Below, piece after piece: positions 3,101 to 12,100 of a stretch of DNA of 64,000 nt (the stretch's first letter is position 1; each line of letters starts with the position of its first letter). This stretch comes from Balanoglossus misakiensis (Eukaryota; Animalia; Hemichordata). Below the pieces are notes generated by a model. The model saw only the letters and a program-made list of their open reading frames with translations. It was not told where the DNA came from and searched no databases. The stretch lies in NCBI GenBank assembly GCA_040954595.2, contig CM082588.2, positions 6,956,202-7,020,201 of the forward strand, in the 5' to 3' direction. Both the position numbers and the translations under genes were made by a program.

Positions 3101-6100
3101 ATCATGCCTGTAGTTATAACATAAGGTTAAAAAATAAATCTGCATACACAATCAGTGCTGTGATTGTGTGAAATATTATCATTCAAGATATAAGTGCAAG
3201 AAAATGGGAAATCTGGTACTTGAGATTTCATGCTGAATACAGTCTTTACATCACACACAATTGATAAAAAATGTGACTCAAGAAAAGTTTGAAATACTAG
3301 TAACAAAAACCCTGTCATTTTAATGCATTTACGTTTTGATTGCAATGCACACACGTGAAGGAGGTCGCGGAGTACAAAGGCGTAACAGCCTTCTGTCTGG
3401 GATCAGTTAAGTCTCGGTTACCGCATGGTTCCCTAACCCTAAAAACATCCCCAACCTGGTTTTTGTTTGCTTTGTTTGTTTTCTTCTTCACACACTTGAC
3501 CTGATTTTGATATAAACTGTGGAAGCCCAGTTGCTGGAGCCCATGAATGAGAACGCACTTCTAATTTCGAAAAGAGTGCACTATTCAAAATGTCAACAAG
3601 TTACGACAACGAGGGCTACATTGATGTTGTAACCACTGTGAGGGGAAAGGGGACAGAACGAAATGTTTTGAAAATTCAACCTCATCAAATACCCAAAATT
3701 GCAAATGGTTTAACCCTTTCACCACCATGGTTTGGTCCAAAAGTGGACCACAACAAAGGCAACTAGGGGGTGAAAGGGTTAATGTGTGAAATCTGTGTGA
3801 TTGTATAGTAGCACAGCAGAAAAAAATACATCACAGCTCCAATGCACTCTCGTGTCTCACTACTGTGATTAACCATCAGATTTGCCCACACTTCTTACAC
3901 CAGCTAGCCAGCAATATAACACCCTGCACTGTATGCGGTGTCTTGCATATATTAAGCATGCAATAATCTTGCATCCTAATCTTGAATCAGCCAAGATAAA
4001 GGATCGATATTTAACAAAACTACTTTAAGTCCATGACGTACGTTCTAATGCTAACAGAGACAGTTTTCTGACTCAACAACGAATCGTTTCGCCTACAGCC
4101 GTATCTGAAGCCCAGTCTGGCGTTTCCATGGCACCCCCGGCCGCGCCCATAGGAGGAGGGCCGACCGCGTCTCTACCGACCGATGTGACCGGAGCCCATC
4201 TACCGCCACCGGACATCGACATGAGATATTACAACGAATTGATGAACTGCGTTCCGCAGGAGAGCGTCAGTGTGCCACTGGTCATGCACTGTATGCTGGA
4301 ACAGGTATGGTGATTGTCAAACTCCATGCCCCCTTCTGAAAGTATTTCGTCGCTACAAAAACAGCGCACTATTCCAGAATCTGATGGAATGTGTGTTTAT
4401 AAAATGGCATTACAAGAAAAATAATTTCTGTATATCTACTGCCATGACCTATGTTTTCCAGTTGTAAGATTTCTTTTCGTATATAATACTACAGCATGTG
4501 GAGTGCCAATATGGCTGAAACATGCAAGGAATAATTGAAATATGCTATTTTTCGCAGGATGACAATCATTTGCATAATTTTGTGACATTTACATACAGTT
4601 CTTGTCTGCCTTGATTTCGTGGCGTGCTTGTCTTTGATTCTCTACTCAAAATTCAGCACAAAATGCAAAGTTAATATTTAAACATTGTATTATGGTGGTA
4701 TTACTAGTATACACAAAATTCTTCTGTGTATAGACTTCTCCTTATACTAGTAAAGTGCCTTGAACTCCATTGTGGCTACTTGTGGCAGTATAATATAAAC
4801 TCACTATATTATCAATATTGTTTTGACATCAGATTGTAGCTACAGAGGAAGAGAAGGACCCGCCCAGTGAAATCCCCAAATCACCACGCGATGATTGCGT
4901 CGACCACGCATTGGCGACGCATATCTCGAACATGGCTATGAAATTGGGACTCAGCAAAGAAGATAGAGATGTGAGTATAGTCAGTCTTTGTGAAAGATGC
5001 CAGTGGTTTTGTTATAGGTACATGCATGTACATGGTCATGTCCAATTTACATATGTGGTAACTGTAGCTAAATTTCCATAGGTGACCATATACCTTTAAA
5101 GGGTAGTGACCAGGTAAATGTTACCAGGATTCCCCTTAGTATATCAATGCAGTCATATTGACATATGCCATATTGTCAGAAGAGTGTGTCTAAGTGCTGG
5201 AGTGCATGATCATGAAGATTTTTGTGTGTGCCACCCACTGAAAATCTGTGATCGGCCATGTTTTAATTTTCCATTATAACAGGGGTTATTTAAATTTGCA
5301 TAATAGTAGAAGTGTTATTGGGATCCCAAAGCCTGTGCCTATACACCACTTTCATAAGTAGCGCCCTCTACAGGCGATGACGTCATTCGGGGGAAAGTTT
5401 GAAGAAGCCATTTTGTCAACGGTTTTTTTCTTATGTGGCGCCTGGTCTTTTTTCAACGCGGTCGCGGGAAGCTTGAAATGGCTGCAAAAATGGTGAGTGC
5501 GATTTCAGTTTTCTTCTCAAAGTCCTTATTTGGTTCTGCCAAGTAATTTCAGACTGCCGGTCACTCATAAATATTCATCGGCGGCATTAATATTCATTAC
5601 TTAAATATTTACATCCTATTACTTATTCATGTCCTCAACGTACTTGCTCTACGCAGCTCAGTGATCGAGTTTTCATTCACAACTAATACAAAAGACCCAA
5701 TAGCTACAATGACACAACATCTGAACAACTAAATACTATTAGCAACTGTTTCACACCTCTGGTTTTTGTTTCCTTCACGATCTTTTGTTTATTTAACCGC
5801 AATATACATGGGCCAGCCAGGGCTGTGATTTTTATCACTTTCATTCCATTGACAGGCTATCCTTTGAGCTACCACTGAGCTGACTGAAGTGGATCATGAG
5901 TTTTCAGAACGGTAGTGTGGCAAATGCTGTGCAGCCTAGCTGTAATTGTACAAATGTGAGTGATTGTTTTTCAGATGCTTCAATAATGTTACACATGCAA
6001 AGTGAGAATTCACATATTTTCAGTAGTAATATGCCTAATTGAAATATTCATTTGTGTCGATAAGTTTTTAATGTTTGAACTACTTTATCCAGGTGACCAG

Positions 6101-9100: not shown

Positions 9101-12100
9101 GATGGCCATATATTTATGGTACCAAGTCGGAGATACAGGAAATTTGACCAGGACAGAACAATATTACTGACAGTGGTGACAGAAACTGAAAATCGATATG
9201 ACAAATCACGCTCAAAAAGACCCAACCGTACCCTGCACAAAAAAAGAAAAAACTGATTTTGCACAGACAATTTCCGCGGTCTTCCAACCTTTGTTCCAGT
9301 CTGCTGGTGGGAACTTGCTGTCTGGCGAACATTTACGAGATTTTCACCATTTGGCCCAGGGTTTACATATTTTAGAAGGGAATTAAAAACATGAATATTA
9401 GGAAAACCTGTGTAAAAAGAAATATCACACTCTTTGATGTTCTGTATCGAAAATTCGGAGTTGCGAAGAGCAATCTCCAGACGATGGTTCTCTACAGTTA
9501 ATTGTTGGATTTTGTTTTTAAGTTCCTCCATTTCTTTGGCCATGATTTCAAAACGTGAGGAAGTTTCTTCATCAGCCCTTGCAACCTTAGTCGATGCATC
9601 CCCAGATTCCAACTGCATCATGGTTGTCTGGTTCTCATCCGTTTTGCATAACCGCGACAGTTGCAGAGCATTAAATGGCCGACTTGGCTTAGGCTGAGCT
9701 GTTATATGAGGAATATCTTCCCAACACTTAAAAACACACGGGACAGCCCCTGAATGAATCGTCCTCCTGCCACTGAATTGGTGAAACTCAATATCATCTT
9801 CTCTGAAATGGAGGGAGCAAACAACTGTATGATTTCCAACCTGAAAAATAAAAAACAAATATAAGCAATAGTAGAGGGATTATATTTTAGATTCAGCATG
9901 TTTCCAAAGACTTGATTTGTGTTGGAAAGCTACACAGTGAGTGGCTGTGACCTATATTTATATATGTACAACAATTACATTAATGAAATTTTCATCTAAT
10001 TCTTTAGACAGGAATATTTGATTTTTCATTTTTCATAACAGCAAGATGGTGTTTAGGGCTTTAAACAAATCGCTCCAAAATGTTCATTTTAAGAAATTTA
10101 AATACCTTAAAGGACTTGTCTTCATCACGTCTTATTTTTGTCAGCCATATCTTTTTCATTTCTTCATTTTGTGGAATTTATGATACGTAACAGTACCATG
10201 CCCAGGAACAGAAAACTTCCCATAGCTGGTACAGCGTGGCACAGCACAGTTTTTTTTTGTAGCATTCCTGGAGCTCACCTTAGAAAAAAGCTGAATAAAA
10301 AAATAATATGTGATGTAAAAATATATGAAAAAACATCATGGTGGTATCTACAAGTTATGCTGATCACAGCCCTGGCTGGCCCATGTATATTGCGGTTAAA
10401 TAAACAAAAGATCGTGAAGGAAACAAAAACCAGAGGTGTGAAACAGTTGCTAATAGTATTTAGTTGTTCAGATGTTGTGTCATTGTAGCTATTGGGTCTT
10501 TTGTATTAGTTGTGAATGAAAACTCGATCACTGAGCTGCGTAGAGCAAGTACGTTGAGGACATGAATAAGTAATAGGATGTAAATATTTAAGTAATGAAT
10601 ATTAATGCCGCCGATGAATATTTATGAGTGACCGGCAGTCTGAAATTACTTGGCAGAACCAAATAAGGACTTTGAGAAGAAAACTGAAATCGCACTCACC
10701 ATTTTTGCAGCCATTTCAAGCTTCCCGCGACCGCGTTGAAAAAAGACCAGGCGCCACATAAGAAAAAAACCGTTGACAAAATGGCTTCTTCAAACTTTCC
10801 CCCGAATGACGTCATCGCCTGTAGAGGGCGCTACTTATGAAAGTGGTGTATAGTTTTAACCTTTAGCAAAAACATTGCTTGTTCATAATAGTGGTGCGTT
10901 TGAATATTAACTTCTCAGACCAAAACCTCTATATATATACATTGCCAGAAACCCATGTGACTTGAACTTGACTTTTTTTTTTATCTACAGTCGTTGAAAA
11001 ACGAATTTGAAATATCAGAGAAAAAAGTTGAAGATGATGTCAAGAAGCCCCTGCTGTATCACTATGGCGATAACGTGGCCAGTCGCTTGCATCATCTGAA
11101 GCCCATCAATGGTTTCCACCCGCTGGAGGCAGAGTTGGAATTACTCGAGCACGCCCCGTCCGCAGTATTGCGCGAGTTCGCGACGCCCTCGTCCAGCGAG
11201 ATGAAGGAACGCGCCGCCCGCTTGCAGGAGCTCGTCCAGTACTGCGCCAGCGGCAATCTCTCGCAGTCGGAAATCAACCGCGCCTTCAAGCAGTTCGTCT
11301 TCGAGAGCCTGGAGTTGAAGTCGACGGATGACTTCGGAAGATTGAAGCCCGGAAAGCAGGACGAGTTGATTCCGTGGGACGATCCGTACCCGTATTTCAA
11401 AGAGCTGAGGAGGATCGCTTCCGAGGCCGGTTCCAGATCGGACTCGGTCAGCAGCGGGAAACTGCTGGAGGCTATACTGGAGCAAGATGACGCCGGCAAA
11501 GGTAATTCTGAACTGGAAGTTTTGCTGGCAGTAATGCAAAAGTGATTCCTCAGTGGCATTGTTATTTGCAGTGGCGGTGGTGATGATGATGAATATGACG
11601 ACAACAACAACAGTGATGATAATAAAGATGATGATGATGATGGTGATGATTAGGAAGAGGATGATGATAGTGATGATGATGTTGATGAATTTTGTGATGA
11701 TGATGATGATGATGATGATGTTGATGATGGTGATGATGATGATGGTGATGATGATGATGATGATGATGATGATGAAGATGATGATGATGTTGATGATGAT
11801 GATTTATATGACAGTAATGATGACAACAATGGCATCAACCATAACTATTTGCATGTTGTTTCAGTGATTAAAAATTGACCAACGTTTTGTTAATTTCATG
11901 ATTTCCCCAGCATCCCCTCCTCGTCCCGGCTCAGCCAGAAGTGGATCCAGGCCGGCACAGACACCAGTGGACCAGGAAGACCGGGATAAGATGTCACCAC
12001 CAAACACGGAGAAATCCGGCAGTCAGCCCGGATCCAGACCCGGCACCGGAATATTACGCACGGATGCAAGCAAAGCATCCCGGCATGGCTCGGCCAGCAG

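What the first reader, a model, noticed from the sequence alone, without database searches (positions are those of the whole stretch)
5343..10849. Two-gene transposon whose transposase and exonuclease share one TIR-encoded promoter and first coding exon
Seen: each ~487-bp TIR contains ATG GCT GCA AAA ATG|GTGAGT (5478-5498, mirrored at 10714-10694). On the + strand this MAAKM mini-exon splices in phase 0 to an acceptor at 6137, giving [13 protein letters not shown]..., the SAP-like/SWIM/YqaJ protein. On the - strand the identical mini-exon splices in phase 0 to an acceptor at 10291, giving [25 protein letters not shown]..., the THAP-DDE transposase. Neither downstream exon supplies an ATG before its first domain. 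The TIR also extends about 337 bp into intron 1 of both genes. Established: ISL2EU elements pair a THAP-DDE transposase with a YqaJ exonuclease. Inference: the unusually long TIR is a duplicated expression cassette (promoter, 5'UTR, start exon, donor) that drives the two convergent genes symmetrically. This would hard-wire co-regulation and near-equal transcription of the two partners. I am not aware of this being described for this group, though inward TIR promoters are known for maize MuDR.
Basis: partly seen in the sequence, partly recalled or inferred. Interest (0 to 1): 0.85.

Follow-up and report, generated by a model that had tools for sequence, protein, structure and literature searches.

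The report
Transposon ends carry transposase's first exon
This animal jumping gene has two identical 487-base ends that each hold the same five-codon start exon; that exon likely begins the cut-and-paste enzyme, but the partner nuclease keeps its own overlooked start exon, so on that side the shared exon is predicted to be only a leader that would damp, not equalise, nuclease output.

Summary
The anatomy is real: a 5.5-kb ISL2EU-like element with perfect 487-bp TIRs, each holding ATG...ATG|GTGAGT, and convergent THAP-DDE transposase and SWIM-YqaJ exonuclease genes. The transposase half of the claim holds: a RefSeq model from a related acorn-worm element starts MAANM. The exonuclease half fails. 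It matches the N-terminus in all 3 acorn-worm exonuclease accessions and the first exon of metagenome relative L001. Relatives have short shared ends (about 75-100 bp) and separate first exons. Most likely the transposase end was copied over the exonuclease end. The best acceptor, 26 nt past the TIR, would make the mini-exon an 8-codon upstream ORF on the exonuclease mRNA. So the promoter and leader are probably shared, as in maize MuDR, but the coding exon is not. No transcripts were available. This copy's transposase has a one-base frameshift. New variant of a known kind.

The parts
5341..5344 (.). Left boundary. AT duplication if the element starts at 5343; TA (or TATA) duplication if it starts at 5344 with CACC
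   Evidence: no empty site available
5343..5829 (+). Left TIR, 487 bp, identical to the right TIR
5378..5414 (+). TGACGTCA (5378-5385) and GCCATTTT (5407-5414), both conserved in related ends; CRE-like and YY1-like by recalled consensus; candidate promoter core (mirrored at 10814 and 10785 on -)
   Evidence: promoter role inferred
5478..5498 (+). Five-codon mini-exon (MAAKM) plus GTGAGT donor in the left TIR; predicted leader/upstream ORF of the exonuclease mRNA
5830..5855 (+). Unique pyrimidine tract and CAG acceptor starting immediately inside the left TIR
   Evidence: predicted
5896..5955 (+). Overlooked first coding segment of the exonuclease: 20 codons, own ATG, C-x-C near its end, phase-0 GTGAGT donor at 5956
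   Evidence: homologous to P0176 residues 4-22 and to L001:3017-3076
6138..6274 (+). Exonuclease second coding exon
6389..8108 (+). Exonuclease last exon: SWIM-type finger, YqaJ/PD-(D/E)xK domain, stop at 8106-8108
8071..8226 (+). Four 39-bp tandem copies spanning the exonuclease stop
   Evidence: D3
8440..8504 (.). Hairpin with 32-bp arms between the two stop codons
   Evidence: I3
8518..9840 (-). Transposase last exon: THAP C-terminal half, HTH_Tnp_4, DDE_Tnp_4, intact PHIS catalytic motif
10106..10290 (-). Transposase exon 2 (THAP N-terminal half) with a one-base frameshift at about 10177-10183
10694..10714 (-). Mini-exon plus donor in the right TIR; likely first coding exon of the transposase
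10363..10849 (-). Right TIR, 487 bp: end motifs, mini-exon and 337 of the 409 nt of transposase intron 1
10848..10851 (.). Right boundary and duplicated target bases

Best explanation
This ISL2EU-like transposon has two identical 487-bp ends, likely because the transposase end (predicted promoter, five-codon first exon and 337 nt of intron 1) was copied over the exonuclease end; the exon likely starts the transposase protein, while the exonuclease keeps its own ATG exon and is predicted to use the copied exon only as a leader that would form a short upstream ORF. Shown: TIR identity, the mini-exon at both ends, the second ATG exon at 5896-5955 and its homology to relatives' first exons. Inferred: transcription of both genes starts in the TIRs and converges. 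The right-hand RNA splices 10700^10290 and translates from the TIR ATG. The left-hand RNA splices 5492^5856, where the mini-exon frame stops after three more codons, 28 nt before ATG 5896, so the exonuclease would be made by re-initiation or leaky scanning. The result would be matched transcription but unequal protein, favouring transposase. The copying was probably repair or conversion between the arms, and it stopped short of each gene's own acceptor.
For: P0071 (Ptychodera flava RefSeq, 76% identical over the aligned part) starts MAANM and continues in register with exon 2; the TIR copies are the only 2 of 127,996 5-mers within one mismatch. The exon at 5896-5955 scores 35 against P0176 residues 1-22: reached by 2 of 5000 shuffles, best of 585 positions in the interval, and 1 of 147 GTRAG-ended 20-mers in the window. 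L001 has a 20-codon, phase-0 first exon with Cys at the same two positions, 109 bp from its terminus. Transposase ATGs in L002 and L005 lie 112 bp from theirs and the TIR ATG at 136 bp, but the window's exonuclease ATG lies at 554 bp, so the exonuclease end is the derived one. Montipora RefSeq neighbours start differently (P0447 MADAEP, P0518 MSSSIE). The acceptor at 5855 is the highest-ranked CAG upstream of ATG 5896 (pyrimidine fraction 0.71, 35 nt free of AG; two AAG sites inside the TIR score 0.79 and 0.71 and also lead to stops). TGACGTCA and GCCATTTT occur in all 4 ends compared and not in 5500-6137. TIR lengthening by copying internal sequence is described for Galileo (PMC3573991, passages) and Mu (PMC10401008, passages).
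Against: No transcript evidence was obtained. The P. flava, oyster and Montipora N-termini are database gene models, and the P. flava DNA could not be read, so whether its TIRs are long is unknown. Acceptor ranking used a crude pyrimidine count; 5855 (0.71) is weaker than the four homology-fixed acceptors (0.79-0.86) and has no branch-point match in the 50 nt scanned. In-frame routes from the mini-exon into the exonuclease ORF exist (acceptors 5889 and 5907 at 0.50; skipping to 6137). The exon's similarity to the oyster N-terminus is not significant (3106 of 5000 shuffles) and to L001 only modest (103 of 5000). Left and right ends of relatives come from different elements.
Confidence: 0.55

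Rival explanations
1. The long TIR is a by-product of end-to-end copying. The exonuclease is transcribed from a start downstream of the mini-exon (inner TIR or 5830-5895), or hardly at all, so the left mini-exon is not part of its mRNA.
For: The exonuclease has a complete gene from ATG 5896 without the mini-exon. TIR extension without known benefit is described for Galileo (PMC3573991 passages), and Spy TIRs vary up to 1,474 bp (PMC4122938 passage). Only one copy could be studied.
Against: The end motifs conserved upstream of the exonuclease ATG in L001 are present on the left only within the outer 75 bp of the TIR. A usable acceptor begins exactly where the TIR ends. The exonuclease ORF is intact.
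Confidence: 0.27
2. One reading: both proteins begin with the TIR mini-exon as their main form, by skipping 5896-5955 or by an in-frame acceptor at 5889 or 5907.
For: All three routes are in frame. 6137 is the strongest acceptor in the interval. Both TIR ATGs have a purine at -3 and G at +4. P0050 and P0303 have five residues before the same motif. The oyster exonuclease and transposase both begin MSES (weak, 360 of 10,000 shuffles).
Against: The 20-codon exon is open, keeps its ATG, Cys pair and a perfect donor, and matches all 3 P. flava exonuclease accessions, none of which starts MAA. None of 15 distinct exonuclease N-termini examined starts with the mini-exon pattern.
Confidence: 0.13
3. 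The long TIR is a copy-specific accident in a dead element and not a family trait.
For: The transposase is frameshifted in this copy. No sister copy lies in the 64-kb window and no genome was held.
Against: The arms are identical and the exonuclease is intact. The frameshift sits at a short A run and could be a sequencing error. A fitting acceptor on the left suggests that the layout was selected.
Confidence: 0.1

Closest known systems
ISL2EU group of the PHIS superfamily (Han et al. 2015, PMC4482050; Han et al. 2014, PMC4122938)
   Same: THAP-HTH-DDE transposase plus YqaJ exonuclease, animal host, about 5 kb, 2-bp duplication readable as AT, PHIS catalytic motif intact.
   Different: TIR of 487 bp against 6-259 bp in the 25 tabulated families; termini ACACC/CACC, not GG; flanks do not read A|AT|T; the TIR includes an exon and most of an intron.
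Maize MuDR (mudrA/mudrB; PMC3440606 and PMC10401008, passages)
   Same: Two convergent genes, with promoters and transcription starts inside near-identical TIRs; conversion of one TIR onto the other is proposed to explain long perfect TIRs.
   Different: Different superfamily; about 215-bp TIRs. The passages read do not place a start codon or splice donor in the MuDR TIR. MuDR's TIR promoter is shown experimentally; here it is only predicted.
Drosophila Galileo (P superfamily; PMC3573991, passages)
   Same: TIRs lengthened by copying the internal sequence next to one TIR onto the other end.
   Different: Single-gene element; the passages read report no consequence for a second gene's 5' structure.

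Membership tests
PHIS superfamily | Catalytic motif D(19-29)K(29)D(18-40)D(11-19)P(18-28)R(3)E | tested here: met
   Pattern from PMC4122938 matches the last transposase exon
ISL2EU | Transposase with THAP, HTH and DDE domains | tested here: met
   DDE_Tnp_4 and HTH_Tnp_4 above cut-off; THAP partial in the window because it is split by an intron and a frameshift, full in relative P0071 (E 4e-16)
ISL2EU | Second ORF with YqaJ exonuclease domain | tested here: met
   PF09588 E 1e-12, 49 bits against cut-off 22
ISL2EU | AT target-site duplication | tested here: inconclusive
   AT if ends are 5343/10849, TA or TATA if 5344/10848. 4 of 5 ends have AT before ACACC; 5 of 5 have TA before CACC. No empty site.
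ISL2EU | Target context A|AT|T | tested here: not met
   Under the AT reading the outer flanks are T and A. I therefore call it ISL2EU-like and do not file it as canonical ISL2EU.
ISL2EU | TIR 6-259 bp, usually starting GG | tested here: not met
   487 bp, starting ACACC or CACC,
ISL2EU | Transposase falls in the ISL2EU clade of a PHIS tree | not tested
MuDR-like expression design (works-like only) | Transcription of both genes starts inside the TIRs | not testable with these tools
   No RNA run was available; inferred from conserved motifs only
MuDR/MULE family | MULE-type transposase | tested here: not met

The most novel reading that the evidence does not exclude
The lengthened TIR is a selected, family-wide device: one promoter and one first exon drive both genes, and the same five codons start the transposase on one side but form a repressive upstream ORF on the other, fixing a low nuclease-to-transposase ratio (possibly switchable by the in-frame splice routes). 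Two-gene transposons of several superfamilies may have reached this design independently.
Probability: 0.25. Interest if true: 0.68.

Novelty: new variant of a known kind. Interest (0 to 1): 0.42.

Why it matters
TIR-borne promoters for two convergent genes are established for maize MuDR, and TIR lengthening by copying is described for Galileo and Mu. What this element adds is an animal PHIS element in which the copied tract includes a coding first exon and most of an intron, with relatives that show the earlier short-TIR state. That gives a before-and-after case of how end homogenisation rewires a gene's 5' structure. If the upstream-ORF reading holds, identical ends would set unequal protein levels, a simple testable rule for the still unexplained ISL2EU exonuclease. 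If not, it is an ISL2EU-like copy with an unusually long TIR.

Tried and rejected
No whole genome was held, so copy number, sister copies and empty sites were not examined. The RNA run search listed none: no RNA holder listed, and no reads were laid. Scans of viral contigs with both proteins and of prokaryotic genome contigs with an exonuclease alignment confirmed no relatives. The metagenome scan gave 7 loci from 72 candidate stretches; none holds both ends (terminal pattern in 3 of 7 loci, one end each; no long inverted repeat around the genes in the 6 loci scanned). The terminal pattern was designed from these same ends, so locate ends but do not test conservation independently. An N-terminal-region homologue search returned only P0001. 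Many database proteins are ORF calls that begin inside an intron or a later exon and say nothing about first exons. The oyster MSES similarity is inconclusive: 360 of 10,000 shuffles, best of 77 transposase N-termini, but 3 of 4004 unrelated pairs scored higher, and the two proteins were not shown to come from one element. The exonuclease joins used a donor one base off; one search supersedes them. Rescue of the transposase frame by a donor at 10198 was rejected because it removes conserved THAP residues that align in the other frame. Literature searches listed no paper that, by title or abstract start, describes a TIR-borne first exon in ISL2EU. Repbase entries and most subscription journals are not searchable here. 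No folding or complex prediction was run, because neither bears on the splicing question.
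Full report
Observation. The element spans about 5343-10849. Its arms, 5343-5829 and 10363-10849, are 487 of 487 identical, far beyond chance. The + gene carries YqaJ; the - gene carries HTH_Tnp_4, DDE_Tnp_4 and half a THAP domain. The PHIS catalytic motif, a SWIM-type finger and a PD-(D/E)xK site are intact. Two things were missed: a one-base frameshift in transposase exon 2 at about 10177-10183, which lies at a short A run and may be a real mutation or a sequencing error, and an extra exonuclease exon, described below. The element sits in an intron of a + strand SPAG17 homologue.

Transposase side. The closest relatives are Ptychodera flava RefSeq models at 76-80% identity. 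Transposase model P0071 begins MAANM and then runs in register with the window's exon 2. Of 127,996 six-frame 5-mers in the window, 2 lie within one mismatch of that N-terminus, and they are the two TIR copies. The mini-exon is therefore very likely the true first coding exon of the transposase. This rests on one database model, not on reads.

Exonuclease side. All 3 P. flava exonuclease accessions (2 distinct sequences, P0001 and P0176) begin MTMMSN, with 22 residues before the motif that starts at 6138 in the window. The window has the counterpart at 5896-5955: 20 open codons, own ATG, C-x-C near the end, and a phase-0 GTGAGT donor. Its score against P0176 residues 1-22 was reached by 2 of 5000 shuffles; it was the best of 585 positions in the interval and the only one of 147 GTRAG-ended 20-mers in the window to reach that score. 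Metagenome locus L001 has a first exon of the same length, phase and Cys positions (sequence similarity modest, 103 of 5000 shuffles). Montipora models have the same Cys pair, and their neighbouring transposase model starts differently (P0447, P0518). None of 15 distinct exonuclease N-termini listed starts like the mini-exon, though several are uninformative ORF calls. Against this, the oyster N-terminus is not significantly similar, and three distant exonucleases have only 5-6 residues and no Cys pair before the motif, so a skipped isoform could function.

Relatives' ends. Three of 7 metagenome loci hold one element end each: an exonuclease end in L001 and transposase ends in L002 and L005. 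All share the window's terminal sequence, TGACGTCA and a GCCATTTT motif (CRE-like and YY1-like by recalled consensus). Identity between the L001 left end and the L002 right end is 96, 96, 76 and 64% in successive 25-nt blocks and then 40-60%, whereas the two right ends stay at 64-80% through their first exon. The shared part is thus about 75-100 bp and stops before the ATGs, which lie 109, 112 and 112 bp from the termini. These ends come from different elements (about 77% identical), so this is indirect. In the window the TIR ATG lies at 136 bp and the exonuclease ATG at 554 bp. The simplest history is that the transposase end was copied over the exonuclease end. The tract stops 72 nt before the transposase acceptor and 26 nt before a CAG acceptor at 5855 on the left, as expected if each gene had to keep its own acceptor (inference).

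How it likely works. The conserved motifs are absent from 5500-6137, so the exonuclease most plausibly uses the TIR promoter (inferred). Its RNA would contain two ATGs in strong context and a consensus donor at 5493. The best CAG acceptor upstream of ATG 5896 is 5855. Splicing there puts the mini-exon in a frame that stops after three more codons, 28 nt before ATG 5896. From general knowledge of upstream ORFs (recalled), that would lower exonuclease translation. In-frame routes exist at 5889 and 5907 (weak tracts) and by skipping to 6137 and could give minor isoforms. By step: the mini-exon starts the transposase, about 0.9; the exonuclease starts at 5896, about 0.85; the exonuclease RNA starts in the TIR, about 0.6.

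Comparison with what is known. Han et al. 2015 (PMC4482050; main text parts 1-2 of 4, the 25 ISL2EU rows of Table S2 and the text of supplementary file 2 read) define ISL2EU by these two ORFs, an AT duplication in A|AT|T, and 6-259-bp TIRs usually starting GG. The coding features are met; the target context, the termini and the TIR length are not; a tree was not built. I call it ISL2EU-like within PHIS. The ends can also be read as TA|CACC, which fits 5 of 5 ends. PMC9179366 and PMC4122938 (passages) add nothing on TIR exons in the passages seen. MuDR has convergent genes with promoters and starts in its TIRs (PMC3440606, passages), and conversion between arms is proposed for long Mu TIRs (PMC10401008, passages) and for Galileo (PMC3573991, passages). 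Two unchecked AI notes from this scan report similar layouts in a clam P-like element and a fungal Tc1-like element; I did not test them and do not count them as support.

Verdict. It is a new variant of a known kind: an unusually long TIR that has absorbed the transposase's first exon. Interest 0.42.

Noticed in passing
window 4833-4976 and 10994-11530, also 26965-28056 (+): The element lies in an intron of a SPAG17 homologue (matches to mouse SPAG17 residues 454-498, 517-648 and 1504-1839). The exonuclease's splice sites and poly(A) signals are on the host gene's strand and could trap host transcripts.
   Followed up: partly
window 5341-5348, 10844-10851; L001:2906-2913, L002:3011-3018, L005:3882-3889: A clade of ISL2EU-like elements whose ends read TA|CACC or AT|ACACC instead of A|AT|T with GG; possibly a distinct subgroup with another target site.
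   Followed up: partly
proteins P0178 and P0192 (Magallana gigas clusters): The oyster exonuclease and transposase both start MSES and are weakly alike over about 15 residues, hinting at an older end-to-end copying in that family; inconclusive.
   Followed up: partly
window 8071-8226: Four 39-bp tandem copies duplicate the exonuclease's last codons and stop.
   Followed up: no
window 8440-8504: Near-perfect hairpin with 32-bp arms and a 1-nt loop, just past the transposase stop, between the convergent genes.
   Followed up: no
window 10279-10268 (-): A consensus-like donor (AAG|GTGAGC) lies 12 nt into transposase exon 2 and could give a non-productive splice form.
   Followed up: no
window 3705-3785, 14448-14553, 16066-16177, 18251-18355; 14939-15146, 19624-19836: Two families of short inverted-repeat elements (MITE-like) in the host introns.
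   Followed up: no
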